From an uncultured Eubacteriales bacterium (lineage in GTDB: Bacteria; Bacillota; Clostridia; UBA1212; CASDQQ01): a DNA stretch of 32,867 bases. The stretch is from contig CAYMRI010000003.1 in NCBI GenBank assembly GCA_964392835.1, positions 1 through 32,867 of the forward strand, written 5' to 3'. Shown in pieces: positions 6,854 through 32,387 of the stretch. Numbering within the stretch: position 1 is the stretch's first letter; each line of letters starts with the position of its first letter. The notes below the pieces were generated by a model. That model had not been told where the DNA came from. It searched no databases and was given only the letters and a program-made list of their open reading frames with translations. The position numbers were made by a program, and so were the translations under genes.

Positions 6854-6908
6854 AAAAAAACTCCTCCTTTGCATACACACTTACATGAAATGTATATGCA
6901 AGGAGGAG
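6854..6908 (-). terminator. Terminator-like hairpin immediately 5' of spoIIIAA whose 3' arm is the Shine-Dalgarno (CUCCUCCUUGCAUA-N19-UAUGCAAAGGAGGAG-U7-AUG)
   Basis: On the minus-strand RNA, 6908->6895 pairs with 6875->6861 (14-15 bp, 1-nt bulge), followed by UUUUUUU (6860->6854) and then the spoIIIAA AUG at 6853. This could terminate read-through from the ABC operon, or occlude the spoIIIAA RBS in longer transcripts. Confidence 0.5.
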
Positions 6909-6930
6909 ATTTCTATGACTGATATGTTGG

Positions 6931-6996
6931 GTTAACTACAAAATCCCCAAATCGTTATCTACTTTAGATAACCAAACGCCACTTTTGTAGTTAACT
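6931..6996. repeat. Inverted-repeat unit GTTAACTACAAAA-N40-TTTTGTAGTTAAC with a nested palindrome GTTATCTA-CTT-TAGATAAC (6954-6972)
   Basis: Perfect 13-bp arms at 6931-6943 and 6984-6996, directly downstream of the ABC transporter stop codon (6998). The same arms recur at 19.7-19.9 kb. Confidence 0.7.
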
Positions 6997-6997
6997 T

Positions 6998-8827
6998 CTA
7001 CCCTTCCCCGGCCACCAGCGAATAATTTTTAGACTGCAGGCGGAACATTTCCGCATATTTGCCGTTTTGCGCCATCAATTCCTCGTGACTGCCTCGCTCA
7101 ATAATGCGACCCTGTTCCATCATAAAGATGGTATCCGCTGCCTTGGTGGTGGAAAGTCGGTGGGAAATAAAGATAACCGTCTTGTCTTCCGCCGCTTCCA
7201 GCATAGAGTGGTTCACATGGTATTCACTCAGCGGGTCCAAGGCGCTGGAAGGTTCATCCAAAATCAGCACTTGCGGATTGCCTGCAAACACACGGGCAAT
7301 AGCCACTTTCTGCGCTTCCCCACCGGAAAAAACCGCGCCGTCCTCATGGAATTCCTTGGTTAGCTGGGTATCCAAACCAGCGGACAAATCAGACAACTTC
7401 TCTGTAAAGCCGGCCTTGTCCAAAGCGTCTCGCACTTCCTGCTCTCTGTCCTCTGCTTTATCCATCACCACATTTTCTGCCAGCGATGCTGCAAACATGG
7501 AAAAATCCTGAAAAGCCGTTCCAAAACATTCTCGATATGCTGTCAGCTTATAGTCCCGGATATCCTTTCCATCGTAACAAATAGCACCTTCTGTTGGGTC
7601 ATACAATCTAGTCAACAGTTTTACCAATGTGGATTTTCCGGCACCGTTATAGCCTACAATTGCCACCTTTTCACCCGGGCGAATATCAAAACTAATATCG
7701 TGCAAAGTGGGTTTTTCATTGCCCGCATAGGTAAAACTTACATTGCGGCAGGAAAAAGCAGCGGGTTTTGCCGGTGGCGGTAATGCATCCGGTTTATCCT
7801 GCATTTGAATTTCGTAATCCAAAAAACCGCGGAACTTTTCGGTGTATAAGCTGGACTTTTGGAATGCACTCACAGACTGTGCAACATTGTTTAAATGATT
7901 CTTTAATACCCAACTACCATCTAACATACCTGCTAAAGTACCATAGGTAATACTTTTCTGCACAATCGCACGATATGCCAAAAGGCCCGTATAGACACCA
8001 TCAATCAAAAATGAATTAAAAACAAAATTTCCAAAAAACATAAGGACGTAAAGTTTGAGGGAATATTTGTCTATCACATGTTTCATCTTTTCATTTGTTT
8101 GTTTAAAATCCTCTTGTAAACTTTCCTTTAAGGGATGTAATCGCATTTCCTTTGCATAATCCGGCAAATAGAAGACGCGATTAATATAGGACCGTTTTCG
8201 TTCAAAAGGCTTATAGTCTACATCCCGTTGAAACCACACTTTGTTGCTCTTTAATGAGGTTATAAACACCCCTAAAAAGGAACAGAAAATAATTAGCAAC
8301 CCGATGCCGTCCATCGTTAGCATAGCAATAGAAATACCGGAAATACCAACCAAACTTTTCATAAAAGAAGATACGTTGCCCAGCAACTGACATACTTGTT
8401 CTTCCGCTTGGGATGCCGCCCAAACAAAGTCGTTATAAAAATCCGGATTACTATAGCAGGTATAATCCAACTTTACCGCTTTGGCAAAAAGTTCCGTTTG
8501 CATCTTTTCTCCTAATTTTTGTCTCTGGCTTGGTTCAAAAACTTCATGGAAAAACGCAGCCAAAATCTGTATCGTTCCACAGTAAAAGAAATAAAGACAA
8601 CCACTGAAAATAACGCCGCCAAAGTCATGTGTCACCGTAACTGCATCCACCGCCAGTTTCATTAACAAAACACCCCAAATGACATCGTTTAATCCAAACA
8701 ACATTTGCAATAAAATATGGGTGATTGCATAAACAGGTGTAAAACGAAATGCATATTTTAGCATAAACAGGTTGTTTTTCAAAACACGACTGAATTTTTG
8801 CTTTTCCATCTTTTCTTGTGGTTTCAT
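6998..8827 (-). CDS. ABC transporter permease/ATP-binding fusion protein (type I exporter half-transporter, MdlB/MsbA-like)
   Basis: N-terminal six-helix TMD followed by an NBD with Walker A GYNGAGKST, signature FSGGEAQK and Walker B ILDEPSSALD. Its ATG overlaps the stop codon of the upstream ABC gene (ATGA). Confidence 0.9.
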   Translation of the reverse strand: MKPQEKMEKQKFSRVLKNNLFMLKYAFRFTPVYAITHILLQMLFGLNDVIWGVLLMKLAVDAVTVTHDFGGVIFSGCLYFFYCGTIQILAAFFHEVFEPSQRQKLGEKMQTELFAKAVKLDYTCYSNPDFYNDFVWAASQAEEQVCQLLGNVSSFMKSLVGISGISIAMLTMDGIGLLIIFCSFLGVFITSLKSNKVWFQRDVDYKPFERKRSYINRVFYLPDYAKEMRLHPLKESLQEDFKQTNEKMKHVIDKYSLKLYVLMFFGNFVFNSFLIDGVYTGLLAYRAIVQKSITYGTLAGMLDGSWVLKNHLNNVAQSVSAFQKSSLYTEKFRGFLDYEIQMQDKPDALPPPAKPAAFSCRNVSFTYAGNEKPTLHDISFDIRPGEKVAIVGYNGAGKSTLVKLLTRLYDPTEGAICYDGKDIRDYKLTAYRECFGTAFQDFSMFAASLAENVVMDKAEDREQEVRDALDKAGFTEKLSDLSAGLDTQLTKEFHEDGAVFSGGEAQKVAIARVFAGNPQVLILDEPSSALDPLSEYHVNHSMLEAAEDKTVIFISHRLSTTKAADTIFMMEQGRIIERGSHEELMAQNGKYAEMFRLQSKNYSLVAGEG

Positions 8828-10656
8828 TCTGCTACACCCCCTGCCAATCCGTACATTTCTGCCTGTAGTCGGAACATTTCAGCATATTTTTGATTGTTCG
8901 CCATCAAAACAGTATGGGTTCCATATTCTGTCACCTTTCCTTGCTCCATTAAATAGACTTGGTCTGCTAACGTAGCAGAAGAAAGACGATGTGAAATAAA
9001 TACTACTGTTTTTTCCACACATACCTTCTTTAGGTTTTCAAACATTTGATATTCCGCAATGGGGTCTAGTGCACTGGAAGGTTCGTCCAACACCGCAAAT
9101 TCGCAACCGCTGGCATAAAGTCTGGCAATGGACAACTTTTGAAATTCCCCTCCGGATAACACTAAACCGTCATCATCAAATTCCCTGGTTACCATGGAAT
9201 CCATTCCCTTTTCACTTTCCATCACTTTGTCATATATTTCCGCATTTTTTAGTGCCTCTTCCACCTTTTGTCGTTCCTGTTCCTCTACCGGATGCAACAA
9301 TACATTTTCTGCAATGGACATGGCAAAGGCATGATAGTCTTGAAACACAGCACCAAACAAGTTTCGATATTCTGCCACAGCGTATTCTTTTATATTGATT
9401 CCATCCAACAGAATTTCACCTTCCGTTGGATCATAAAGCCGAAACATCAACTTAATCAATGTGGTTTTTCCTGCACCATTATGGCCCACCAACGCAATGG
9501 TTTTTCCGGGATGTAATACCATATTCACATTTTGAAGTACAGGCGTTTTTGAACCTGCATAGGTATAAGATACATTTCGAAATTCTAATGTATGTGGCTG
9601 TTGTTTGGGAACCATTCCTGTTTGACTTTGCGAAATTTGAGGCTGATACTCCAAAAAGTCACGAAAATTTTGAATAAATAACCCATCCTTTTGCATTGTT
9701 GTAAACATATCTAAAAAGAATGTCAAATTCCAAGAAATTGTGTTAATGGCATTAATCAATACGACAAACATACCGGGTGAAATGGTTTTACTGATTAATA
9801 CGCGATATCCTGCATAAATAATTGCCAGCGGCCATCTACAAATTCGAAGCAATGTTTCCAAGATACGATATATTGCAATTTTTGCGCCTAATGTACGATA
9901 GTTATGCTGAAGTTCTTTAACCCCCTGTGCATAATGGTCTTTTTGCACTTGAAAAATATTTGTTAAGCGCAATTCCTTGGCATAGTTTTCCAAATAAACC
10001 GTACGATTCACATACTCTTTCTTTCGTTGCGGTTCAGTATTTGCTTGAATCAAATCATATGTAACTTTATGTTTTTTACTGGTTGCTCCAAGGGATCCGA
10101 CAATTGGAAAAATCAAAAAAATTAATGCAAATGGATCCAACATGAAAATAGTAGCCATAATCGTCGTTGCAGATAAAAATACACCGACAGTTCTTGTGAA
10201 ATTATCCAATATTCCGGCTACCCTGCCCCCGGTTTCTGAGGCTGCTCGCGTATACTTGGTATAAAATTCCGTACTTTCGTAACATGCTAAATCAACATCT
10301 GCCGCCTTATCAAACAACATTTGATTGACCGCCTGGTAGAAAGCAATATCCGTTTTTGCACGGTAGGATTGCCAATACCAACTTCCCCAAAGTTGAAAAG
10401 CCAATTGTATCAATACCGTGATTAGCACAAAAAGCAATACCACCCCAAAGGAACGTCCCTGTTCTAATGCACCAAATAATACACCCGTAAAAAGAACATT
10501 ATAATAGGAATTGGATAAACAACTGAGGGTTTGATAGATAAAATCTATCAGCACACGGCTTTTCTTTACCTTCCAAGCGATGCCAAGTAAGTAAAAATTG
10601 TTTTGTATCGCCTTGCGAAAAGAAATCTCCTTCTTTTCTTTCTTTTTTTGTTTCAT
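8824..10656 (-). CDS. ABC transporter permease/ATP-binding fusion protein (partner half-transporter; likely heterodimeric exporter)
   Basis: TMD followed by an NBD with Walker A GHNGAGKTT, signature LSGGEFQK and Walker B VLDEPSSALD. The start is trimmed to MKQKKKEKK (ATG 10656) with RBS GAGGTG 8 nt upstream; the ORF-track start is a GTG. Confidence 0.9.
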   Translation of the reverse strand: MKQKKKEKKEISFRKAIQNNFYLLGIAWKVKKSRVLIDFIYQTLSCLSNSYYNVLFTGVLFGALEQGRSFGVVLLFVLITVLIQLAFQLWGSWYWQSYRAKTDIAFYQAVNQMLFDKAADVDLACYESTEFYTKYTRAASETGGRVAGILDNFTRTVGVFLSATTIMATIFMLDPFALIFLIFPIVGSLGATSKKHKVTYDLIQANTEPQRKKEYVNRTVYLENYAKELRLTNIFQVQKDHYAQGVKELQHNYRTLGAKIAIYRILETLLRICRWPLAIIYAGYRVLISKTISPGMFVVLINAINTISWNLTFFLDMFTTMQKDGLFIQNFRDFLEYQPQISQSQTGMVPKQQPHTLEFRNVSYTYAGSKTPVLQNVNMVLHPGKTIALVGHNGAGKTTLIKLMFRLYDPTEGEILLDGINIKEYAVAEYRNLFGAVFQDYHAFAMSIAENVLLHPVEEQERQKVEEALKNAEIYDKVMESEKGMDSMVTREFDDDGLVLSGGEFQKLSIARLYASGCEFAVLDEPSSALDPIAEYQMFENLKKVCVEKTVVFISHRLSSATLADQVYLMEQGKVTEYGTHTVLMANNQKYAEMFRLQAEMYGLAGGVAE

Positions 10657-10719
10657 AATACAATTCACCTCTATTCGATACACTCATTGTAACATGTAGT
10701 TTTGAAAAAAACAAGCACA

Positions 10720-10752
10720 GGGGATAACTGGTAGAAACCTTGGGATAATTGG
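10720..10752. promoter_or_regulatory. LytTR-type direct-repeat box: GGGATAACTGG-N10-GGGATAATTGG (repeat starts 21 bp apart)
   Basis: Two near-identical 11-mers at 10721-10731 and 10742-10752 in the divergent promoter region between the ABC operon and the LytTR response regulator. The 9-11-bp repeats with a roughly 12-bp spacer match the AgrA/LytTR binding-site architecture. A TACAAT -10 element (minus strand, 10691..10686) lies 28 nt beyond the box toward the ABC genes. Confidence 0.5.
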
Positions 10753-10812
10753 TGTGGAATTTCTGCCAAAAGTGCATTAAAATAATAGTTAAAACATAAG
10801 GAGGAAACATTT

Positions 10813-11547
10813 ATGCTTACCATTGCCGTTTGTGACGATCAACATGTATTTGCCGACAAAGTGGTGCAGGAACTGAAACATTTATGCACAATCCATATGG
10901 CAAAGGGATTTGCATATGAAATTCTACAACCTTTTGAATCTGCAAAAGATGTATTAGACACACTTTCACAGAAAAACATAGACATTCTGTTTTTGGATAT
11001 TGAAATGCCGGATATGGATGGATTTGCGTTAGCCAAACAAATCCGCGAACAATACCCTGATTTGATGTTGATTTTTGTTTCCGCTTACGACGAACTTGTG
11101 TTTCAATCTTTTGTCTATCACCCCTTTTGGTTTTTGAGAAAAGCCAGAATTGAGCAAGAATTGCCTCACATTTTTACAAAAGCCATTGAACAATATATGT
11201 CCAGCAAAGAAGCGGAATTGTTTCAAACCAAAAACGGGAATGTTCTTCTCCCATTAAAAGAAATTTTGTATTTAGAAGCAGATCGCAATTATTACAACAT
11301 CTATTGCACAACAGGCGCATTGTACAAATGCCGTGGCACGCTTTCCGAATTAGAGTCTCGATTTAAGAAACACAATTTTTACCGGGTGCATTCTGCTTAT
11401 TTGATTAACATGGCACATATTTGGCAGATTTCTTCTGTAAGCAGTGTTACCATGAAAAATAACAAACTGATTCCGGTAAGCCGTCACAGAGCCACGGCGT
11501 TTAAAAATGCATATTCTGCATTTGTCCGCAGGAGGATTACACGATGA
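10813..11547 (+). CDS. LytTR-family response regulator (REC plus LytTR DNA-binding domain; AgrA/ComE-like)
   Basis: Receiver domain with the acidic pocket and the phospho-acceptor Asp (in LFLDIEMPDMDG), plus a C-terminal LytTR domain. RBS AAGGAGG lies 7 nt upstream of the ATG. Confidence 0.9.
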   Translation: MLTIAVCDDQHVFADKVVQELKHLCTIHMAKGFAYEILQPFESAKDVLDTLSQKNIDILFLDIEMPDMDGFALAKQIREQYPDLMLIFVSAYDELVFQSFVYHPFWFLRKARIEQELPHIFTKAIEQYMSSKEAELFQTKNGNVLLPLKEILYLEADRNYYNIYCTTGALYKCRGTLSELESRFKKHNFYRVHSAYLINMAHIWQISSVSSVTMKNNKLIPVSRHRATAFKNAYSAFVRRRITR

Positions 11548-12839
11548 TTTCTACATTGTTTGAAGTAGGGGCAAATCTGGTTGATACCATTTTGGCAATT
11601 TATTTTTTTACACGCTTTCATTTTGCATCTTTGCGGAAAAACTATTTTGTACTTCCATTTGCCATTTTCTTTTTTGGCGTTGCCCTTGTGGGTGATCGTT
11701 TCTTTCCCGGCTTCACAATATTTCCTATTCTAATGGGATTTTCTTTCTGCTTAGCCTATACCCTTCTTATATCCAAAAAGCACTATGTACGAGCCATTCT
11801 TTCCACATGCATTTTTTGGATTTCTTATATGTTAATCAGTAGCCTTCTATATATAATCATCTCTATGGTGATAAAGGATTTTGATGTGCTGATGCAGGAT
11901 GCCAACACCGGTTCCCCGCTTCGCTATTTATACTTACTTCTTGGAAAACTTTGTTTGTTTATGATATTGCAACTATTTCTTGTCATTTTTAGAAAAAATA
12001 CTGCTATGGAACTGAAAAACAGTCTTTTAGCTATTTTGTTCACCCTAATTACAGCCTTTGGACTTGGTGCTACCATGGTGCTGACGGCCCAACCCAATGT
12101 TGCAGAGGTTCAAAATGATCTTCTCCTCATTGTTCTTGCTTTTATTGCAGCCAATACGTTATTGTATATTCTCCTGGCACAGATGCAAAAGTTGCAGCAA
12201 CACAAATATGAACTGAAATTATTACAAGAAACGATGCAATTTGAAGAAAGTCGTTATAAAGAACTTTCTGCCATCCATTCTAATGCACAAAAAATGCAAC
12301 ACGATATTAAGAATCATTTGACGGTCATTTCCGGCTATCTGCAAGAAGAAAAAATTTCCGACTGCCACAAATATCTGCAGGAAATATTGGAGCAATCAGA
12401 GAAAGGCAATCAACATTTTTATTCCGGCAATGCAGTTTTAGATTATCTCATCAGTGCCAAAACCGCTTCTTTGCAGGATACTGAAGTAATCGTTTCCGGA
12501 AACGCAGGAGATTTTTCCGATATGAAAGAAACAGACCTGGCATGTCTCATAGGAAATATGCTGGACAATGCCATTGAAGGTTTGGAAGGCGTTGCCGAAA
12601 AACGTATTCAATTATTTTTCCATTTAGAAAACAACAATCAAATTATTATTTGTCAAAATACTATAAAGCACTCTGTACTGCAGACAAATTCGCAGTTGCA
12701 GTCCACCAAGCCAGACAAGGGCAATCACGGCCTGGGGCACAAAATCATTGCCAAAATTGTTGCCGACTATGACGGCATTTACGAGTATTACGAAGAAAAT
12801 GGTATGTTTGGATTGCAAGTCATTTTACCGCAAAAATAA
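11544..12839 (+). CDS. Membrane sensor histidine kinase, GHKL/HATPase_c_5 type (AgrC-like)
   Basis: Roughly six N-terminal TM helices, an H-box (MQHDIKNHLTVISGY) and an AgrC-type ATPase region (GHGLGHKIIAKI). Its start codon overlaps the stop codon of the response-regulator gene (ATGA). Confidence 0.85.
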   Translation: MISTLFEVGANLVDTILAIYFFTRFHFASLRKNYFVLPFAIFFFGVALVGDRFFPGFTIFPILMGFSFCLAYTLLISKKHYVRAILSTCIFWISYMLISSLLYIIISMVIKDFDVLMQDANTGSPLRYLYLLLGKLCLFMILQLFLVIFRKNTAMELKNSLLAILFTLITAFGLGATMVLTAQPNVAEVQNDLLLIVLAFIAANTLLYILLAQMQKLQQHKYELKLLQETMQFEESRYKELSAIHSNAQKMQHDIKNHLTVISGYLQEEKISDCHKYLQEILEQSEKGNQHFYSGNAVLDYLISAKTASLQDTEVIVSGNAGDFSDMKETDLACLIGNMLDNAIEGLEGVAEKRIQLFFHLENNNQIIICQNTIKHSVLQTNSQLQSTKPDKGNHGLGHKIIAKIVADYDGIYEYYEENGMFGLQVILPQK

Positions 12840-12982
12840 CCTCTTGCATGTCCATCAATTTTCGTTATCCAAAATTATATTTTTTTCATTTTTGGGAAAT
12901 AGGCTTTAAAAACAATAAATGAATGGAAGACAACTCCCCCTACGAAGCGTCTCCCATCTGCCTGGCTTCAAAGTTTATCTGT

Positions 12983-13720
12983 TTACCCTTCCGCTTTCCA
13001 GACCCCGTTTTCATAGTTTAAAAACACGGAGAACTGTTCCGTTTCAATATCGCCATCAGGCTTATAGAAGAAAAAGGTTGCTTTCAGCCGTTCCTGCTCT
13101 GCCGTAATCTCAGATAAATATAGTTCATAGCTTTCGGGGTTTGTCTGATATTCTTTTCCATATTCTACTCTCTCATCTATCAAAAATTCTAGTTCTTTCC
13201 AAGCTTCCCCATCTCGATATAAAATATATTTGTCTCCCACATAATTGAATTTTAAGTCAACCTTCATAATACTGGGCAGTTGTGTGATTGTCCCATCTGC
13301 ATATTTAAAAATAAATGCTTTTCGGTCACTCATGGCACCGGAATTCTCACAAGAAAAAACAATTTCTTGTGTTTCATCCCCATCTACATCAGTCGTAAAA
13401 TATTGTGTATGCAAAATTGCATACTCTTCCGGCAACATAGAGACATCAGCAATAAATGCAGCACCATTTATCTCAATTTCCAAGGTCAACGAAGCCCCAA
13501 GCCAAAGAGATTCCTCGCTGGTATAAGAAATTACAATTTCTTCAGCCTGCCCATCTTTCTCCAAATCCGACAAAAATTTTTCCTCATTCATGGCAACAGG
13601 AATGGGCGTCGATTCTGGGGTGGGCGTCGGAAACACCGGCTGTACACCCGCCCCGTTTTGACATGCTGAAAAACTAAATAAGCAAATGATACTGATAAAA
13701 ATGCTGATACCTTTTTTCAT
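12983..13720 (-). CDS. Lipoprotein of unknown function
   Basis: Signal peptide with a lipobox (MKKGISIFISIICLFSFSAC). The start is trimmed to ATG 13720 with RBS GAGGG. No recognisable catalytic motifs. Confidence 0.7.
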   Translation of the reverse strand: MKKGISIFISIICLFSFSACQNGAGVQPVFPTPTPESTPIPVAMNEEKFLSDLEKDGQAEEIVISYTSEESLWLGASLTLEIEINGAAFIADVSMLPEEYAILHTQYFTTDVDGDETQEIVFSCENSGAMSDRKAFIFKYADGTITQLPSIMKVDLKFNYVGDKYILYRDGEAWKELEFLIDERVEYGKEYQTNPESYELYLSEITAEQERLKATFFFYKPDGDIETEQFSVFLNYENGVWKAEG

Positions 13721-13850
13721 GTTTTCCCTCTTGTTAAAATTATACACCGTTCTCTCAACACTTTATTTTCTACAATTGTCTGTTTTAACGCCGATTTGTA
13801 GGAAAAACGGCCATTTTTTCTGCATTTAGCTCTTTTTTATTTGTTTTGTA

Positions 13851-13883
13851 GAAAAAACCCTATGCGCTTTCGAAGCATAGGGT
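13851..13883 (-). terminator. Intrinsic terminator downstream of the GH38 gene
   Basis: Stem CCCTATGC / GCATAGGG (13858-13865 and 13875-13882) with a 9-nt loop, followed on the minus strand by a U-run (plus-strand AAAAAA at 13852-13857). Confidence 0.6.
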
Positions 13884-19661: not shown

Positions 19662-19730
19662 GTTTTTCCTAAAAAATTTTCTTGGGGTTGCCAGCGCTTT
19701 CTTAACTTCAAATTGATATTTTTCAGGGAA

Positions 19731-19786
19731 TTTGTAGTTAAAAAACTTTGTCAAAGAATCAACGTAGGGAGCTTTTAACTACAAAA
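19731..19786. repeat. Inverted-repeat unit TTTGTAGTTAA-N33-TTAACTACAAAA (same arms as 6931-6996)
   Basis: Arms at 19731-19741 and 19775-19786. The spacer is unrelated to the other copies. Confidence 0.7.
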
Positions 19787-19815
19787 CAGCATTTTCATAA
19801 CAAAATGTAATTAAA

Positions 19816-19827
19816 GTTAACTACGAA
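19816..19827. repeat. Degenerate solo half-site GTTAACTACGAA
   Basis: Matches the arm motif at 11 of 12 positions. It lies between the two complete units. Confidence 0.4.
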
Positions 19828-19845
19828 TTGGTGTTTTTTTAACTG

Positions 19846-19902
19846 TTTGTAGTTAATTTGATTGTTGCATGTGCATCATGGGAAAAGAATTAACTACAAA
19901 AA
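19846..19902. repeat. Inverted-repeat unit TTTGTAGTTAA-N33-TTAACTACAAAAA (third copy)
   Basis: Arms at 19846-19856 and 19890-19902. The spacer is again unique. Confidence 0.7.
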
Positions 19903-19963
19903 GGCATTTTTGAAGAAAATGCAGTTAAAAATTGGGGCCTCCCATTTGAAATTCCAACTAACG

Positions 19964-19996
19964 AAAACCGGAAGGTTTTTACCCCTTCCGGTTTTT
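19964..19996. terminator. Bidirectional intrinsic terminator downstream of floT
   Basis: Stem CCGGAAGG / CCTTCCGG (19968-19975 and 19984-19991), flanked by A4 on the left and T5 on the right. Confidence 0.6.
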
Positions 19997-21437: not shown

Positions 21438-21471
21438 CACTACATTTCTCCTTTTTTGTTTATTATATTTT

Positions 21472-22044
21472 TTAAATTTTATCTATTTCTTTCATACGGA
21501 CAATTTCCATCCGTATCACCCGCATCCCAATCGGCTTTAATCCATCTTCCACATTGGGTACTGCCATTTCCAAAAACTGATATTTATCTGCCGGCATTTC
21601 TTCTGCATCGGCTATCATCTGTTGCAATTGCCCCCGTGCAATATCCTTTACTAAAGATTCTACTACAGACTGCTTTATCCCAATCAAATGTTGTGCTGCC
21701 TGATTTAACAAATCCGGTTCCGTGGAAATGCCTGCTGTAACTTCAACTTTTAGTCCAGCTTCTTCCACTTCCACCTGAATGGATACCGGCTCCAAATCCA
21801 AATAAGCATAGGATTGCAAAATCGGAATCACCACAGTTGCACCGCCATTTATGCATTTAAATGTAATCGGGTTTCCATCCGCATCCGTCCCCAAGTATCC
21901 GTAAATTACCATAACCTTGCCGGGCGGGCACTTTTTGTAACTAATGGTAACCCACACCACACAGCCAATCAGTAAGATAACGATTGCACCAACAAAAAAC
22001 GGCAACGAAGCATTTGCCTGCAATTCAATTACTGATTCTTTCAT
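21472..22044 (-). CDS. Short SPFH-domain protein, a paralog of the FloT N-terminal domain that lacks the coiled-coil region
   Basis: 190 aa; it aligns with the FloT N-terminus (YKKCPxxKxMVIYG...KCIxGGAxxVIP...GISTEP...GQL). RBS GGAGA lies 9 nt upstream. Confidence 0.8.
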   Translation of the reverse strand: MKESVIELQANASLPFFVGAIVILLIGCVVWVTISYKKCPPGKVMVIYGYLGTDADGNPITFKCINGGATVVIPILQSYAYLDLEPVSIQVEVEEAGLKVEVTAGISTEPDLLNQAAQHLIGIKQSVVESLVKDIARGQLQQMIADAEEMPADKYQFLEMAVPNVEDGLKPIGMRVIRMEIVRMKEIDKI

Positions 22045-22059
22045 CTCTTTCAGTCTCCT

Positions 22060-22722
22060 TTAATCTACATCCAGTGTTTCTACCAGCACTGTCCCACCGT
22101 CAATCACATCTATGATTTTCACGGTACTACCCGTCTTTATCGGGCTATCTTGCTTTGTCTTTGCTTCCAACTCCACGTAGCGATCCTGCAGTTCCATGGT
22201 AATCTTTCCTGTAGAAGTACCGGATGCCGGTATGGTCAGATAGACAGTTGCCTTCTTTCCAATTGCATTTTTCACATCGATATTACCGTTGCTTTGCAGT
22301 TTGTAAATCAATTTGAAAAATAATGCAATCAAAAACGCTGCCAAACAGCCTCCCAGCACAGCCCCCACAATGGACAAAGCGGTATTTACACCGACATCCA
22401 CCAAAACCACGCCAAGCCAACCGCCAACTGCGAAGAAAGCAATAATGCCCCGGACGGTCAGCAATCGCAAGCCATCCACATCACTCAGGTCATCTGCTCC
22501 GGTATCTGTATCCACATCTGTATCTACATCTGCATCCACATCTGCATCCACATCTGCATCTACATCTGTATCCATATCGGAAGCATCTCCATCTGTGCCA
22601 TGGCCCAGGCCAAACAGACTTAGTACTGTCTGCAAAATCAGTATGACTGTGGCCGGAATGGCAGCAATCGCAAAAACCTGTTGTAACCCGGTTAAAGCTT
22701 CCCACCAAGCGCCTATACCCAT
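22060..22722 (-). CDS. NfeD-like membrane protein (YuaF-type; C-terminal OB-fold) with an internal Asp-rich (DVDA/DVDT)n repeat
   Basis: TM helices plus a C-terminal beta-rich domain (...KATVYLTIPASGTSTGKITMELQDRYVELEAKT...) typical of NfeD partners of flotillins. RBS GGGGGA lies upstream. Confidence 0.8.
   Translation of the reverse strand: MGIGAWWEALTGLQQVFAIAAIPATVILILQTVLSLFGLGHGTDGDASDMDTDVDADVDADVDADVDTDVDTDTGADDLSDVDGLRLLTVRGIIAFFAVGGWLGVVLVDVGVNTALSIVGAVLGGCLAAFLIALFFKLIYKLQSNGNIDVKNAIGKKATVYLTIPASGTSTGKITMELQDRYVELEAKTKQDSPIKTGSTVKIIDVIDGGTVLVETLDVD
22506..22577. repeat. Six imperfect 12-bp tandem repeats (ATCTGYATCYAC) inside the NfeD gene, encoding (D-V-D-A/T)n
   Basis: Direct reading of 22506-22577. 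Confidence 0.8.
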
Positions 22723-24913: not shown

Positions 24914-26446
24914 TTATTCTGTTACATATGCATATGCTTTAAATTCAAAGATACCATATCTTGGAAGTTCTCTCCACCGGGACGGGTCACTAAGGGTTTT
25001 AGAACCGTAATTTCTGGTCAAACTTTCGCAATCAACCAAAGTGATACGGATATATTTTGCTTTCATAACGCCTTCATCAACACGTGGTGTAGTACGAACT
25101 CTTCCACTGGTTTGGTCAGCATATTCGTTCCAATTTGTACCATCTGTAGAAAAATCTATCTTATAACGATAGTACTTGGAGCCAAACTCAAAATATAATG
25201 CCGTTTTTTGAATTTCATATTCCTGTGCCAGCTCAATTAAAATTTCCTTTTCGCCTTCATCATTGGCAGTTTTAAATATTGAGCTGAAGCTTCCGTCTAC
25301 CAAATTCTCCGGCAGATAAATTCTTTCCTTTTGATCGGAAGTGTATGTAACCGTAGCACCCTCTGCCACATTTTTCAAAGTTGCTTCTTCTGCGGAAGTA
25401 GTCACACCCAACAAAATACCATCATAGGAAGCATTTACTTTTTGAATGGTGCCATCTTCATTAAAAATCATGTCATCTACACATACTTGCCGAAATCCTT
25501 GTCCATTAAACGGAATGCTCTGTCTATGATAAACCATAACATATCTTCCGGGTTCCAATTCAATGGTAGAGTGGTGGCCGGTTCCTACCAAATCTTCATC
25601 TGCAGATTCCAATATGGTCCCATAAATGGTATACGGACCATAAATACTGTCTGCCGTCGCATATCCTACACGATAATCTCTTCCGGTCCAATTTCCTTCA
25701 GAATAGAGTAGATAGTACTTACCATCCTTTTTAAAGATTTCCTGTCCTTCACGATAAGTATAACTCAGTTCTTCAATTTGTTTGGTTTCAATAACTTCCC
25801 TGGGATTTTCCGGATTTAACTTGGTAATGGCGGTAAATAAATCGCCACTGGCCTGATGTTCATACATAAGATAAGTAATATAGAGACTGCCATCGTCATC
25901 CATAAACGGCTGTGGGTCAATGGTTTTGTTGTCCGGGAACAAATCATCGCCATGTACGGTAAACGGTCCTTCTGGAGAGTCACCGGAAGCCACCATAATT
26001 TTGTAGTCGGCCAATGTGAAGAAAAGATAATATTTTTCACCTATTTTTATCATGGATGGTGCCCAGAAATAGTTGTCTGCTCCGTCAAAACTCTTCCCAT
26101 TTTCATTCAGCAGTTCCATTTCCATAACGGACCAATTTACAAAGTCTGTGGACTTCCAAATCATAGGTTTCCCACCATTGCCGTTTAACACATAACCATC
26201 TGTGGTAGAATAGATGTAATAGGTATCATCAAATTTGCAAACAGATGGGTCTGCATGGTAGCCCGGCAAAATAGGGTTCTTTAATTGTGTAATAGTAGTA
26301 ACCGTACCATCCTCATTTTGAATGACCGTTCCGGCAGGCAAAGTTGGCGTCGGAGTGTCCTCTGCTCCGTTGTCACAGGCAGCTGCCATGCTAAGTAACA
26401 AAGTCATTGTCAACAACAAGCAAAACATTCTAATTCCTTTTTTCAT
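24914..26446 (-). CDS. GH43-family glycoside hydrolase lipoprotein with a C-terminal discoidin/CBM32-like domain (paralog A)
   Basis: Lipoprotein signal (LLLSMAAAC) and the GH43 N-terminal motif NPILPGYHADPS, with a five-bladed beta-propeller-type sequence. The C-terminal roughly 150 aa resembles the F5/8 type C domain. RBS GAGGAG lies upstream. Confidence 0.85.
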   Translation of the reverse strand: MKKGIRMFCLLLTMTLLLSMAAACDNGAEDTPTPTLPAGTVIQNEDGTVTTITQLKNPILPGYHADPSVCKFDDTYYIYSTTDGYVLNGNGGKPMIWKSTDFVNWSVMEMELLNENGKSFDGADNYFWAPSMIKIGEKYYLFFTLADYKIMVASGDSPEGPFTVHGDDLFPDNKTIDPQPFMDDDGSLYITYLMYEHQASGDLFTAITKLNPENPREVIETKQIEELSYTYREGQEIFKKDGKYYLLYSEGNWTGRDYRVGYATADSIYGPYTIYGTILESADEDLVGTGHHSTIELEPGRYVMVYHRQSIPFNGQGFRQVCVDDMIFNEDGTIQKVNASYDGILLGVTTSAEEATLKNVAEGATVTYTSDQKERIYLPENLVDGSFSSIFKTANDEGEKEILIELAQEYEIQKTALYFEFGSKYYRYKIDFSTDGTNWNEYADQTSGRVRTTPRVDEGVMKAKYIRITLVDCESLTRNYGSKTLSDPSRWRELPRYGIFEFKAYAYVTE

Positions 26447-26468
26447 AATTTTTATCTCCTCATTTATT

Positions 26469-28001
26469 TTATTCTGTTACATATGCATACGCTTTAAATT
26501 CAAAAAGACCATATCGGGAAAGTTCTCTCCAACGTTGTGGGTCACTAAGATTTTTAGAGCCGTAGTTTCTGTTCATATTTTCGCAATCGGTCAATGTAAT
26601 ACGAATATATTTTGCAGTCACAACCCCTTCGTCCACCCGAGGTGTTACTCTTACTTTCCCTGATGTCTGATCGGCATAGAGTGTCCAATTTTCATTGTCA
26701 GTAGAAGTTTCTATTTTATAGCGATAATATTTAGAACCAAATTCAAAATATAATTCTGTCTTTTGGATTTCATACTCCTGCGCTAATTCAATATAAATTT
26801 CTTTTTCGCCATCGTCATTTGCTGTTTTAAACAATGTTTGATAAGTCCCATCCACCAAATATTCCGGTACATAAATTCTTTCCTTTTGGTCGGAAGTGTA
26901 GGTAACGGTAGCACCTTGTGCCACATTTTTCAATGTTGCTTCTTGGGCAGACGTGGTAACACCAAGGACAATACCATCATAAGATGCTTTTACTTTTTGA
27001 ATGGTGCCATCCTCATTAAAAATCATATTGTCTACACAAACCTGGCGATAACCAAAGCCTATAAAAGGAATACTTTGTCTATGATAAACCATGACATATT
27101 GGCCGTCTTTTAGCTGCAATGTAGAGTGATGCCCTGTACCCACCAAATCTTCATCGGCAGATTCCAAAATGGTACCTTTTATTTCATACGGGCCATAAAT
27201 GCTATCCGCCATGGCATATACCACATGATAATCCGTTCCGGTCCAAACGCCTTCGGAAAACATTAAATAATATTTCCCATCTTTCTTAAGAATTTCCTGC
27301 CCTTCACGATAGACACGACTCAATTCTTCTATTACTTTTGTTTCAATCACTTCTGTAGGGTCTTCGGGATTTAATTTTGTGATGGCAGTAAGCAAGTCCC
27401 CACTCGCTCCGTCTTCATACATCAAATAGGTGATGTAAAGGCTGCCATCGTCATCCACGAACGCTTGCGGGTCAATGGTTTTATTCTTAGGAAAAAGGTC
27501 ATCTCCTTGCACGGTGAAAGGACCCATTGGAGAATCGCCTGTTGCCACCATAATTTTATAGTCTGCCAAAGTGAAGAACAAATAATATTTTTCTCCAACT
27601 TTTGCTAAAGATGGTGCCCAGTAACCATCTCCTGCGTTACTAAATTTTTTGCCTTTGTCGTTTAATAATTCCATTTCCGTTGCGTTCCAATTGACAAAGT
27701 CTGTGGAAGTCCAAATCATAGGCCAACCACCATTGCCACTGACAATATAACCGTCTGTGGTGGAATAAATATAATAAGTATCGTCAAATAAATATGCGGA
27801 AGGGTCTGCATGATATCCCGGCAAAATAGGATTTGCCAACTGGGTTATCGTGGTAACCGTACCATCCCCATTGTCTATGACAGTGCCAACTGCCGGCGTA
27901 GGTTCCGGGGTATCCTCCGTTCCTTGATCACATGCAACTGCCATACAGGTCAATACTGTAATCAACAATAATAAAATACCGGTTTTTATTACTTTTTTCA
28001 T
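26469..28001 (-). CDS. GH43-family glycoside hydrolase lipoprotein with a C-terminal discoidin/CBM32-like domain (paralog B)
   Basis: About 75% amino-acid identity to paralog A over the full 510 aa. The signal peptide and lipobox LTCMAVAC are present. It lies 22 nt upstream of paralog A. Confidence 0.85.
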   Translation of the reverse strand: MKKVIKTGILLLLITVLTCMAVACDQGTEDTPEPTPAVGTVIDNGDGTVTTITQLANPILPGYHADPSAYLFDDTYYIYSTTDGYIVSGNGGWPMIWTSTDFVNWNATEMELLNDKGKKFSNAGDGYWAPSLAKVGEKYYLFFTLADYKIMVATGDSPMGPFTVQGDDLFPKNKTIDPQAFVDDDGSLYITYLMYEDGASGDLLTAITKLNPEDPTEVIETKVIEELSRVYREGQEILKKDGKYYLMFSEGVWTGTDYHVVYAMADSIYGPYEIKGTILESADEDLVGTGHHSTLQLKDGQYVMVYHRQSIPFIGFGYRQVCVDNMIFNEDGTIQKVKASYDGIVLGVTTSAQEATLKNVAQGATVTYTSDQKERIYVPEYLVDGTYQTLFKTANDDGEKEIYIELAQEYEIQKTELYFEFGSKYYRYKIETSTDNENWTLYADQTSGKVRVTPRVDEGVVTAKYIRITLTDCENMNRNYGSKNLSDPQRWRELSRYGLFEFKAYAYVTE

Positions 28002-32070: not shown

Positions 32071-32174
32071 CTGCTTCCCCTCCCTTTTGATATAAAAACG
32101 CTGTGCAACTGTGTTTGGTCAATTTTTAGTATAAAAAATTATTGTCTGATTTGTGTCGGTCAGTTCAGATTGCA

Positions 32175-32322
32175 TCTCAGTCGTTACCGTCCTTTTACAT
32201 ACGGTATCTCAGAAGTTACCGCCCGCAGAAGGTGGGTATCTTTTTTTACACAAAGAAAATTTCATAAATAAATGGTTTTTTTACTGAATTTGGTGAGATA
32301 CCGTCATGTTCCGGGCGGTAAT
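32175..32322 (-). promoter_or_regulatory. Structured 5' leader of the sigma operon with interleaved complementary segments (alternative helices or pseudoknot)
   Basis: GGTATCTCA (32203-32211) pairs with TGAGATACC (32295-32303). TTACCGCCCG (32216-32225) pairs with CGGGCGGTAA (32313-32322). A direct repeat ATCTCAG-NN-GTTACCG occurs at 32175-32190 and 32206-32221. Confidence 0.4.
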
Positions 32323-32387
32323 TATTAAGATAGCGTACATAACAGGACGATAAAATCCGACATGCAATCCCAACCACCCGTGTGCCA

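What the first reader, a model, noticed from the sequence alone, without database searches (positions are those of the whole stretch)
6931..6996. Recurrent 12-13-bp inverted-repeat module TTAACTACAAAA...TTTTGTAGTTAA in two distant intergenic regions
The 12-mer and its reverse complement occur at 6931, 6984, 19731, 19775, 19846 and 19890, plus a 1-mismatch half-site at 19816. They always occur as convergent pairs spaced 33-40 bp apart with unrelated spacers. For a specific 12-mer, the expected count in 2 x 32.9 kb is below 0.01, so this is a genuine repeat family. Arms that are conserved while spacers vary suggest a dimeric DNA-binding protein site (centres about 45 bp apart, roughly four helical turns) or a stem-only-conserved RNA or DNA hairpin; both would resemble a small REP/MITE-like element. 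One copy lies between an ABC transporter stop and the spoIIIAA start. The other two lie upstream of the efp promoter.
Basis: seen in the sequence. Interest (0 to 1): 0.6.

Follow-up and report, generated by a model that had tools for sequence, protein, structure and literature searches.

The report
Dispersed hairpin repeat family, partly mobile
The recurring 11-base inverted repeat is real and marks a small family of hairpin-forming DNA repeats in an uncultured spore-forming Clostridia lineage: one copy has stayed a perfect hairpin across related species and another cluster is a recent 287-bp insertion, so it resembles the known small palindromic "REP/MITE-like" repeats of bacteria rather than something fundamentally new.

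Summary
The repeat is real. The 11-mer TTAACTACAAA occurs exactly 6 times. With up to one mismatch it occurs 8 times against 1.1 expected, and all 8 sites sit in inverted pairs within two intergenic regions.

Locus A (6931-6995) is a 65-nt nested hairpin with a 13-bp outer stem, an 8-bp inner stem and a 10x10 internal loop. The two exact pairs at locus B have the opposite arm order. Once the degenerate half-sites are counted, B resolves into four 38-46-nt hairpin modules arranged as two diverged units of about 115 nt.

Relatives were decisive. Element A sits at the orthologous position, 11-12 nt upstream of the spoIIIAA promoter, in species with 95%, 86% and 78% SpoIIIAA identity. All 21 stem pairs are Watson-Crick in all three complete copies, five pairs changed on both sides, and none changed on one side only. 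Locus B is a 287-bp insertion (19677-19963) in the T-tract of the flotillin terminator. It is absent from a conspecific strain that is 99.7% identical and from a sister species.

There is no match in Rfam, plasmids or phages. I could not reach the host genome, so copy number and any mobilising enzyme are unknown.

Best reading: a lineage-specific family of stem-conserved hairpin DNA repeats that works like REP/MITE elements but is not a strict member of either. Interest is modest.

The parts
6931..6995 (.). Element A: a 65-nt nested palindrome. Layout is outer arm 13 nt, spacer 10, inner arm 8, loop 3, inner arm 8, spacer 10, outer arm 13. It starts 2 nt after the ABC-transporter stop and ends about 12 nt upstream of the putative spoIIIAA -35 (AGTCATA).
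   Evidence: (I2). Folding gives RNA -23.1 (- strand) and -19.3 (+ strand) kcal/mol with z -6.2 and -8.7, and DNA -13.2 kcal/mol with z -7.6. Orthologous copies are in L064, L147 and, partially, L065.
6931..6943 (.). Outer arm GTTAACTACAAAA. It pairs with 6983-6995.
   Evidence: 13 of 13 Watson-Crick pairs in window, L064 and L147. It is identical in window, L147 and L065, and L064 carries 2 compensated pairs.
6983..6995 (.). Outer arm TTTTGTAGTTAAC.
6954..6972 (.). Inner hairpin GTTATCTA-CTT-TAGATAAC. Its arms resemble the outer arm GTTAACTA.
   Evidence: 8 of 8 pairs in all three species, and 3 pairs changed on both sides (GTTATCTA, GTTGTCTA, GTTAACTC).
19677..19963 (.). Locus B: a 287-bp insertion made only of repeat modules. 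It lies in the T-tract of the flotillin terminator, upstream of the efp promoter, and is polymorphic within the species.
   Evidence: The empty site CCGGTTTTTTTTAGGAAAAAC is seen in L068/L135 (flanks 99.7% identical) and in L076. The filled allele is seen in L136 and L138-140. Contig L137 ends exactly at the junction.
19702..19741 (.). Module b1: TTAACTTCAAA-N18-TTTGTAGTTAA.
   Evidence: DNA fold z -3.4.
19775..19820 (.). Module b2: TTAACTACAAAA, then the inner hairpin GCATTTT/AAAATG, then a degenerate right arm AAAGTTAA.
   Evidence: It is homologous to b4 (alignment z 10.2).
19817..19856 (.). Module b3: TTAACTACGAA-N18-TTTGTAGTTAA. It shares its first TTAA with the end of b2.
   Evidence: It is homologous to b1 (z 6.4).
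19890..19928 (.). Module b4: TTAACTACAAAA, then the inner hairpin GCATTTT/AAAATGC, then AGTTAA.
19731..19785 (.). Exact tail-to-tail pair TTTGTAGTTAA-N33-TTAACTACAAA.
19846..19900 (.). Second exact tail-to-tail pair, again with a 33-nt spacer.
19964..19996 (-). Intrinsic terminator of the flotillin gene. Its T-tract is the insertion target of locus B (context feature).
   Evidence: (I16).
13766..13806 (.). Probable degenerate family member C1: TTTTCTACAATTG...GATTTGTAGGAAAA. It has the same 18-nt core gap as b1 and b3 and lies just downstream of the GH38 terminator.
   Evidence: Alignment to b3 gives z 4.2, with 0 of 500 shuffles as good. It folds weakly (z -1.1). As a single core-pair hit it is not significant on its own (0.57 expected).
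13814..13857 (.). Possible further remnant C2: TTTTTTCTGCATTT...TTTTGTAGAAAAAA, abutting the GH38 terminator T-tract. Uncertain.
   Evidence: Similarity to b4 is not significant (z 1.2).

Best explanation
The 11-mer marks a lineage-specific family of short, non-coding, hairpin-forming DNA repeats. The conserved stem core is CTACAAA/TTTGTAG, usually extended to TTAACTACAAA/TTTGTAGTTAA. What is conserved is the base-paired stem. Loops and interiors vary in length and sequence, so the unit most likely acts as a folded hairpin at the DNA level (single-stranded DNA or cruciform) and not as a double-stranded dimer operator or an RNA.

Copies arise as insertions of pre-existing module DNA next to intrinsic terminators. 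Locus B is a 287-bp, four-module insertion in a terminator T-tract that is still segregating in the population. A copy can also persist for a long time. Element A is fixed upstream of the spoIIIAA promoter across species and is kept a perfect two-stem hairpin by paired substitutions.

Shown: the repeat family, hairpin potential, compensated substitutions, orthologous conservation, and the insertion polymorphism with its exact junctions.

Inferred: that a trans-acting enzyme recognising hairpin plus core spreads the modules (by analogy with the Y1/HUH transposases of REP and IS200/IS605 elements), that more copies exist elsewhere in the genome, and that any host effect is secondary.
For: - Enrichment and obligatory pairing. 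There are 8 sites at <=1 mismatch against 1.1 expected, all in inverted pairs. There are 10 arm pairs against 0.4 in shuffles and 7 core pairs against 0.57.
- Homology beyond the arms. b1 aligns with b3 (z 6.4) and b2 with b4 (z 10.2). A and b1 share TTAACTACAAAWTCCC. C1 aligns with b3 (z 4.2).
- Stems under a pairing constraint. All 21 stem pairs are Watson-Crick in window, L064 and L147. Five pairs changed on both sides and none on one side. Six of the ten window/L064 differences lie in three compensated pairs.
- Arms better conserved than surroundings. Arm spacing ranges from 16 to 41 nt. The arms are 13/13 identical in species whose neighbouring gene DNA is only 74-90% identical.
- DNA level rather than RNA. 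In L147 the element lies between an intrinsic terminator and the promoter -35, a gap that is probably not transcribed. There are no G-T pairs in 63 stem cells, and both strands fold equally well.
- Mobility. The 287-bp indel has an empty site in a 99.7% identical strain and in a sister species. One contig ends exactly at the junction. The two internal units are only about 70% identical, so the insert existed before it landed here.
- Indirect signs of further copies. k=31 contigs from at least four samples break reproducibly so that a 32-nt piece of A and an 88-nt piece of B are left out. The 88-nt piece ends exactly at the TTAA end of b1. That is the pattern expected if those pieces also occur in other contexts.
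Against: - Genome-wide copy number is unknown. The host lineage is absent from the genome and metagenome collections I could scan, so I see only 2-3 loci in 32.9 kb.
- The 287-bp insert has no terminal inverted repeats and at most an ambiguous 2-nt TT duplication.
- L064 shows that the flanking TTAA of element A belongs to the inverted repeat and is not a target duplication.
- No transposase is known.
- A's arms are conserved more strongly than expected for a selfish relic. In L064 the inner and outer arms became the same sequence (GTTGTCTA), which points to sequence-specific recognition or gene conversion and would also fit a host regulatory site.
- Paired substitutions in a DNA palindrome can arise by template-switch correction without selection (my own knowledge, not tested here).
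Confidence: 0.5

Rival explanations
1. The arms are operator half-sites for a sequence-specific double-stranded-DNA-binding regulator, possibly a sporulation regulator. Element A would be a four-site operator just upstream of the spoIIIAA promoter, and locus B an accidental extra cluster of sites.
For: - Element A always ends 11-12 nt upstream of the conserved AGTCATA...GCATATACAT promoter-like block, whatever gene lies upstream: the ABC transporter in window and L064, GH38 plus its own terminator in L147.
- The arms are 13/13 identical across species while the flanks diverge.
- Inner and outer arms resemble each other in every species and changed together to GTTGTCTA in L064. A shift in protein specificity predicts this; a pure structural constraint does not.
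Against: - Half-site order and spacing are inconsistent, with centre distances from 11 to 52 bp and both head-to-head and tail-to-tail arrangements.
- The sites in A are nested (-> -> <- <-), not side by side.
- Locus B is dispensable, being absent in a 99.7% identical strain.
- Relatives at 84% (L066/67) and 64% (L082) keep the promoter block without the element.
- No match to any operator consensus I could recall. The LytTR regulator encoded in the window has different candidate sites.
Confidence: 0.2
2. The hairpins are recombination (att-like) sites at which DNA segments are inserted or exchanged. Element A and the remnants at 13766-13857 would bracket a 6.9-kb two-component-system/ABC island, and locus B would be a gene-less array of such sites.
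For: - In L147 and L066 the GH38 gene lies directly upstream of A/spoIIIAA. In the window a 6.9-kb block (6998-13747) sits between them.
- Element A lies at one end of that block. At the other end, CTACAAAAC and the C1/C2 remnants lie right after the GH38 terminator.
- The type of A's interior does not follow the SpoIIIAA tree. L065 (95%) has an L147-like right spacer, which suggests exchange within the element.
Against: - The remnants at the far end are weak. C2 is not significant and C1 is borderline.
- No recombinase gene is visible in the window genes annotated through relatives.
- Another gene-content polymorphism in the same strains (21455-22053) has no such motif at its junctions.
- The arms do not fit the integron attC core sites.
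Confidence: 0.1
3. Element A is a structured RNA element in the 3' untranslated region of the ABC operon, either a stabiliser against exonucleases or an RNase III site. The B modules would be related RNA hairpins.
For: - Stable folds: -23 to -32 kcal/mol with z about -6 to -7 on the sense strand.
- The element starts 1-2 nt after the ABC stop codon in window and L064.
- Compensated stem changes.
Against: - In L147 the element follows a canonical terminator and precedes the promoter, so it is probably not transcribed.
- Both strands fold equally, and there are no G-U pairs in 63 stem cells.
- No Rfam family matches, even at E<=5.
- No U-tract follows it, so it is not an intrinsic terminator.
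Confidence: 0.08
4. Chance recurrence of an A/T-rich word, or an assembly artefact.
For: Single unrelated hairpins carrying the same 11-mer arms occur by chance in many phyla. Most are extended bidirectional terminators.
Against: - None of 100 shuffles reaches the observed count.
- The same sequences are assembled independently from several samples and by different assemblers.
- Orthologous copies exist in three other species.
Confidence: 0.01

Closest known systems
REP / BIME / REPIN elements (GTAG-tagged repetitive extragenic palindromes; PMC3733652, PMC2817692, PMC8266576)
   Same: Both are short extragenic palindromes that occur singly, as inverted dimers with 20-100-bp spacers, and in clusters. 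Both contain the invariant tetranucleotide GTAG/CTAC. Both are often found next to gene ends and terminators. In both, the stem is conserved more than the loop, and dimers can fold into one long hairpin.
   Different: Here GTAG lies inside the conserved stem and is not a single-stranded tag beside a separate stem-loop body. The stems are A/T-rich. Copy number and any RAYT gene are unknown. The host is a Clostridia lineage, and the words Clostridi/Firmicutes do not occur in the main text of the 2013 survey. Element A has a nested two-stem design in which both stems carry nearly the same sequence.
Bacterial MITEs (for example Correia/NEMIS, RUP, bcr1; review PMC3184786)
   Same: Both are non-coding and intergenic, have terminal inverted repeats of about 11-14 bp, fold into hairpins, and show presence/absence polymorphism between strains.
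   Different: The modules are only 38-65 nt. No target-site duplication was found. The polymorphic 287-bp insert has no terminal inverted repeats of its own. No parent insertion sequence is known.
IS200/IS605-derived palindrome-associated elements (PATEs) and their Y1/HUH transposases (PMC6006769)
   Same: Both lack terminal inverted repeats and target duplications at the insertion. Both rely on hairpins that would be recognised in single-stranded DNA. Insertion next to a specific short sequence or a hairpin is typical of this group.
   Different: The resemblance rests on analogy only. No transposase, no defined left or right end and no conserved target tetranucleotide were identified here.
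Integron attC sites
   Same: Both are imperfect palindromes of 57-141 nt lying directly after a gene's stop codon. Their structure is conserved more than their sequence, and they act as folded single strands.
   Different: The arm ends do not fit the RYYYAAC/GTTRRRY core sites. There is no integrase and no cassette array, and the neighbouring genes are core genes.
Kiritimatiellae/Lentisphaerae repeat GCCCTTACGGGC-TTAACTACAAAC-N22-GTTTGTAGTTAA-CGCCGTAAGGCG (found)
   Same: The arm 12-mer TTAACTACAAAC/GTTTGTAGTTAA is identical, and it occurs in many copies per genome.
   Different: It comes from an unrelated phylum. It has G/C-rich stem-loop bodies outside the GTAG, a classic tail-to-tail REP-dimer layout that the Clostridia modules lack. 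The shared 12-mer may be coincidence.

Membership tests
REP (GTAG-tagged repetitive extragenic palindrome) | GTAG tetranucleotide at one terminus of a 20-40-nt palindromic unit, next to a stem-loop body (stem 5-13 bp, loop 2-20 nt; PMC3733652) | tested here: not met
   GTAG/CTAC is present and invariant, but it is base-paired inside the conserved stem (TTAACTACAAA/TTTGTAGTTAA). No separate stem-loop body flanks it on either side.
REP (GTAG-tagged repetitive extragenic palindrome) | High copy number per genome (tens to more than 100; PMC2817692) | not testable with these tools
   The host lineage is absent from the genome and metagenome collections. Only 2-3 loci are visible in 32.9 kb. Contig-break patterns hint at further copies.
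REP (GTAG-tagged repetitive extragenic palindrome) | A cognate RAYT (Y1 transposase) gene in the genome, usually flanked by REPs | not testable with these tools
   None of the window genes annotated through relatives' contigs is a transposase. The rest of the genome is not available.
REP (GTAG-tagged repetitive extragenic palindrome) | Occurrence as inverted dimers and clusters with 20-100-bp spacers | tested here: met
   Locus B holds four modules with 33-nt spacers, and element A is an inverted pair with a 39-nt interior.
MITE | Terminal inverted repeats | tested here: met
   Each module has 11-14-bp inverted arms. The 287-bp insert as a whole has none.
MITE | Target-site duplication flanking the element | tested here: not met
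   In L064 the outer TTAA of element A is replaced by TTGT...ACAA, which is an inverted sequence and not a direct one. Comparing the empty and filled B sites leaves at most an ambiguous TT.
MITE | Presence/absence polymorphism at otherwise identical sites | tested here: met
   The 287-bp locus B is absent from L068/L135 (flanks 99.7% identical) and from L076.
MITE | A parent insertion sequence with matching ends | not testable with these tools
   The genome is unavailable. The B region has no match in plasmids or phages.
Intrinsic (Rho-independent) terminator | G+C-rich stem followed by a U-tract | tested here: not met
   The scan finds no terminator-like site at A or within the B modules. The stems are A/T-rich and no T-run follows them.
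Known structured RNA family (Rfam 15) | Covariance-model match | tested here: not met
   No hit at gathering thresholds, and only chance-level miRNA-like hairpin hits at E<=5.
Integron attC | R''/R' core sites RYYYAAC ... GTTRRRY at the ends of an imperfect palindrome, plus an integron integrase nearby | tested here: not met
   The arms read GTTAACT.../...AGTTAAC. GTTAACT fails RRR at the third R and AGTTAAC fails YYY (read directly). No integrase is found among the annotated neighbours.
Palindromic operator of a dimeric transcription factor | Fixed half-site orientation and spacing, repeated at regulated promoters | tested here: not met
   Centre-to-centre distances range from about 11 to 52 bp and both arm orders occur. 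Element A's fixed distance to the spoIIIAA promoter is the one feature that fits.

The most novel reading that the evidence does not exclude
The hairpin is a sequence- and structure-specific DNA site, read as a folded two-stem hairpin that displays the same duplex motif twice. A dedicated protein in this spore-forming lineage would use it to insert or exchange DNA next to terminators: a cassette or island capture system in Clostridia that is not an integron. Element A would mark the junction of a 6.9-kb sensor-kinase/ABC island with the sporulation operon spoIIIA, and locus B would be a gene-less array of such sites.
Probability: 0.1. Interest if true: 0.65.

Novelty: new variant of a known kind. 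Interest (0 to 1): 0.33.

Why it matters
Small palindromic repeats are well described in Proteobacteria but hardly at all in Clostridia. This family gives a clean example with a dated contrast between two copies. One old copy is held as a perfect nested hairpin across species, with five compensated stem changes. One young insertion is still polymorphic inside a population and has exact junctions in a terminator T-tract.

If the genome-wide census confirms a family, it could be used as a strain marker for this uncultured lineage. It would explain recurrent assembly breaks in its metagenomes. It would also point to an unidentified hairpin-specific DNA enzyme in spore-formers. If instead element A turns out to be a host operator, it would be a new cis-element of the spoIIIA promoter. 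In either case the practical impact is modest.

Tried and rejected
- Genome-wide census. I scanned TTAACTACAAAN{15,45}TTTGTAGTTAA in genome contigs (61 loci), metagenome contigs (52 loci) and viral contigs in both arm orders (3 loci). The host lineage is not present in any of them. The hits are chance extended terminator hairpins plus an unrelated PVC repeat family, so no census was possible.
- Known RNA. Rfam gave nothing at gathering thresholds or at E<=5.
- Tandem Repeats Finder found nothing in locus B, because the units are too diverged.
- blastn of the B region against plasmids and phages found no match.
- TTAA as a target-site duplication. Rejected, because L064 has inverted flanks at that position, not direct ones.
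- Terminal inverted repeats of the 287-bp insert. None found.
- Binding sites of the neighbouring LytTR regulator. Rejected. Its likely sites are 21-nt-spaced GGGATAAYTGGT repeats at 10721-10753.
- Spo0A, Rex, BirA, CodY, DnaA and other operator consensus sequences recalled from memory. None fits; this was not a formal test.
- Invertible-segment model for the contig breaks. Rejected, because the break positions do not coincide with the arm boundaries (reasoning).
- Protein-based retrieval of other copies. Impossible, because all six reading frames of the modules are full of stop codons.
- Motif at the junctions of a second strain polymorphism (21455-22053). Absent.

Full report
**1. Observation**

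The window is a complete 32,867-nt contig (42% G+C) from an uncultured Clostridia lineage. Its SpoIIIAA is only about 50% identical to those of Acetivibrio and Ruminiclostridium.

The 11-mer TTAACTACAAA is exact at 6932+, 6984-, 19731-, 19775+, 19846- and 19890+. One-mismatch copies lie at 19702+ and 19817+. That makes 8 hits against 1.10 expected, and none of 100 shuffles reaches 8. The strict 12-mer is exact only four times. All copies are intergenic.

Locus A lies on the gene-sense (-) strand, 2 nt after the stop of an ABC-transporter gene (6998) and upstream of spoIIIAA (start 6853). Locus B lies between the intrinsic terminator of a flotillin (Band_7) gene and the sigma-70-like promoter of efp.

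**2. Anatomy**

Locus A (6931-6995) is a 65-nt nested palindrome, written here on the + strand:
- outer arm GTTAACTACAAAA (13 nt)
- spacer of 10 nt
- inner arm GTTATCTA
- 3-nt loop
- inner arm TAGATAAC
- spacer of 10 nt
- outer arm TTTTGTAGTTAAC

Both strands fold well. RNA folds give -23.1 and -19.3 kcal/mol with z -6.2 and -8.7, and the DNA fold gives z -7.6. The inner arms resemble the outer arms (GTTATCTA against GTTAACTA).

In locus B the two exact pairs have the opposite arm order, TTTGTAGTTAA-N33-TTAACTACAAA.

Counting the degenerate half-sites, B consists of four A-oriented hairpin modules: b1 19702-19741, b2 19775-19820, b3 19817-19856 and b4 19890-19928. They are arranged as two tandem units of about 115 nt that are only about 70% identical. 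b1 is homologous to b3, and b2 to b4, beyond the arms (z 6.4 and 10.2). A and b1 share TTAACTACAAAWTCCC.

A probable degenerate b-type copy (13766-13806, z 4.2 against b3) and an uncertain one (13814-13857) lie right after the GH38 terminator.

None of these sequences is terminator-like or matches an Rfam family. All reading frames are closed.

**3. Element A in relatives**

I used SpoIIIAA homologues and their contigs.
- L064 (86% identity, same ABC gene upstream) has the element at the same place, reading GGTTGTCTACAAAA...GGTTGTCTAAAGTAGACAAC...TTTTGTAGACAACC.
- L147 (78%) has GTTAACTACAAAA-CCCTCGAAAG-GTTAACTCACTGAGTTAAC-TTTTTGCGA-TTTTGTAGTTAAC. There the upstream gene is GH38 with its own canonical terminator.
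- L065 (95%) is a contig that begins inside the element and keeps the right arm.

The right flank is orthologous in all four. The element always ends 11-12 nt before a conserved AGTCATA...GCATATACAT block, which I read from general knowledge of sigma-E promoters as the spoIIIAA promoter (inference).

All 21 stem pairs are Watson-Crick in the three complete copies. Five pairs changed on both sides (two outer and one inner in L064, two inner in L147), and none changed on one side only. Six of the ten window/L064 differences are in compensated pairs.

The outer arms are 13/13 identical in window, L147 and L065, although the adjacent gene DNA is only 74-90% identical.

The element is absent in L066/L067 (84%) and in L082 (64%), which nevertheless keep the promoter block.

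Two details remain unexplained.
- In L064 the inner and outer arms both became GTTGTCTA.
- L065's right spacer resembles that of L147 and not the window's.

**4. Locus B is an insertion polymorphism**

EF-P homologues led to a Logan contig from the same sample series (L068/L135) whose EF-P and flotillin are identical in protein to the window's. Its flanks are 99.7% identical to the window, but its flotillin-efp spacer is 150 nt instead of 439 nt.

The empty site reads CCGGTTTTTTTTAGGAAAAAC. The window has CCGGTTTT + 287 nt + TTTTTTAGGAAAAAC. A sister species (L076, GCA_052847735.1) also has the empty site.

Other samples carry the filled allele (L136, L138-140). One contig (L137) ends exactly at the junction, as expected when both alleles coexist in a sample.

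The insert lies in the terminator's T-tract. It has no terminal inverted repeats and at most a 2-nt TT duplication. Because its two units are only about 70% identical while the flanks are 99.7% identical, the module array must have existed elsewhere before it was inserted here. More distant relatives have no such modules upstream of efp.

**5. Hints of further copies (inference)**

Logan contigs (k=31) from several samples break at the same bases.
- For A, the ABC-side contigs end at element position 45 and the spoIIIAA-side contigs start at position 18. Only the two 31-mers of a 32-nt central segment are missing.
- For B, the two sides leave 28 nt uncovered. By the same logic this implies an 88-nt segment that ends exactly at the TTAA end of b1.

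This is the pattern produced when a segment also occurs in another sequence context. I could not verify it without reads, and strain heterogeneity is the alternative explanation.

**6. Wider searches**

Scans of GTDB representative genomes, JGI metagenomes and viral contigs for arm-N-arm patterns did not find the host lineage. They returned chance hairpins, mostly bidirectional terminators whose A/T tracts happen to be flanked by TTAACTAC/GTAGTTAA.

They also returned a real multi-copy family in Kiritimatiellae and Lentisphaerae in which the same 12-mer sits between G/C-rich stem-loops. That layout is the classic tail-to-tail GTAG-REP dimer (definitions from PMC3733652). The B region has no match in plasmids or phages.

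**7. Interpretation**

Three observations argue for a folded hairpin and against a duplex dimer operator:
- every site is in an inverted pair;
- loop lengths vary from 16 to 41 nt;
- stem changes are compensated.

Three observations argue for a DNA-level role over an RNA-level role:
- L147's copy lies between a terminator and a promoter;
- there is no G-T pair among 63 stem cells;
- the two strands fold equally well.

The 287-bp indel shows that module DNA moves. The best reading (about 0.5) is therefore a lineage-specific family of stem-conserved hairpin DNA repeats that behaves like REP/BIME or MITE elements. It would probably be handled by an unidentified hairpin- and core-specific enzyme; that step is inferred by analogy with Y1/HUH transposases and was not shown.

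It is not a strict member of either family.
- REP: GTAG is inside the stem and there is no separate REP body. Copy number and RAYT could not be tested.
- MITE: there is no target-site duplication.

Rival readings:
- A double-stranded operator of the spoIIIA promoter (0.2). For it: the fixed promoter distance, strong arm conservation and the concerted inner/outer change. Against it: inconsistent spacing and orientation, and the dispensability of B.
- An att-like recombination site bracketing a 6.9-kb two-component/ABC island (0.1). This is suggestive, but the far-end remnants are weak.
- An RNA 3'-UTR element (0.08).
- Chance (0.01).

One caveat applies to all of these. Paired changes in DNA palindromes can arise by template-switch correction without selection (general knowledge, not tested here).

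**8. Verdict**

Interest is modest (0.33), mainly for the contrast between a long-conserved, compensated copy and a segregating young insertion, and for the unknown partner protein.

Noticed in passing
L005, L008-L011, L014-L018, L024-L027, L031-L033, L041, L043, L047-L048, L055, L062-L063 (Kiritimatiellae MAG JAFGHX01); L009, L020, L022, L030, L056 (JASLPY01); L051, L085, L088, L090, L101, L105, L117, L132, L134: A multi-copy repeat in Kiritimatiellae and Lentisphaerae: GCCCTTACGGGC-TTAACTACAAAC-N~22-GTTTGTAGTTAA-CGCCGTAAGGCG. It appears on about 28 contigs of one MAG. It shares the exact 12-mer arm with the Clostridia modules, but it has G/C-rich stem-loops outside the GTAG, like tail-to-tail REP dimers. 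The shared arm may be coincidence or may reflect related recognition.
   Followed up: partly
window 6854-6921 (- strand sense): The spoIIIAA leader contains the hairpin CTCCTCCTTGCATATACAT...GTGTGTATGCAAAGGAGGAG followed by T7 and the ATG. It looks like a terminator whose 3' arm is the ribosome-binding site, and a sigma-E-like -10 (CATATACAT) lies inside it, with the -35 AGTCATA upstream. Read-through transcripts would be terminated and their RBS masked, while promoter-initiated transcripts would be free. It is conserved in L064, L065, L066 and L147, and shorter in L082.
   Followed up: partly
window 6998-13747: A 6.9-kb block (254-aa ORF, histidine kinase, LytTR response regulator and two ABC-transporter genes) lies between GH38 and spoIIIAA in the window and L064. 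It is missing in L147 and L066, where GH38 is directly upstream, and in L082, where an HD-domain gene takes its place.
   Followed up: partly
window 10721-10753: Direct repeats GGGATAACTGGT and GGGATAATTGGT lie 21 nt apart in the divergent promoter region between the ABC operon and the LytTR regulator gene. This is the spacing typical of LytTR binding sites.
   Followed up: no
window 21455-22053: A second strain polymorphism: a 190-aa gene (21472-22044, - strand) is present in the window and in L136-L140 but absent from the 99.7% identical strain contig L135. No hairpin motif lies at its junctions, which sit in repeated RBS-like AAAGGAGA sequence.
   Followed up: partly
window 32163-32374: A large imperfect inverted repeat (79-nt arms, 72% complementary, 54-nt gap) in an intergenic region. 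It contains repeated ATCTCAG..GTTACCG-like words and may be an operator-rich divergent promoter.
   Followed up: no
window 22479-22590 and 24914-28001: A 12-nt tandem repeat (CATCTGNATCCA-like, at least 7 copies) lies inside ORF 22060-22722. Separately, two adjacent paralogous 510-aa genes are 73-79% identical.
   Followed up: no
L001/L002, L141-143 (locus A); L069-73, L136-140 (locus B); L065: Logan contigs from several independent samples end at identical bases inside the elements. They omit a 32-nt piece of A and imply an 88-nt shared piece of B whose end coincides with the module boundary. I read this as evidence that these pieces also occur in other sequence contexts, but I could not verify it.
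   Followed up: partly
L042, L106, L122 (Firmicutes bacterium CAG:145 and metagenome equivalents); L049 (Acutalibacteraceae); L003/L060/L084 (Clostridia HGM12957): Other Clostridia carry single hairpins that start with TTAACTACAAAACAG..., the same 15-16-mer as module b2. They look like extended bidirectional terminators. Only one copy occurs per locus and no family was evident.
   Followed up: partly
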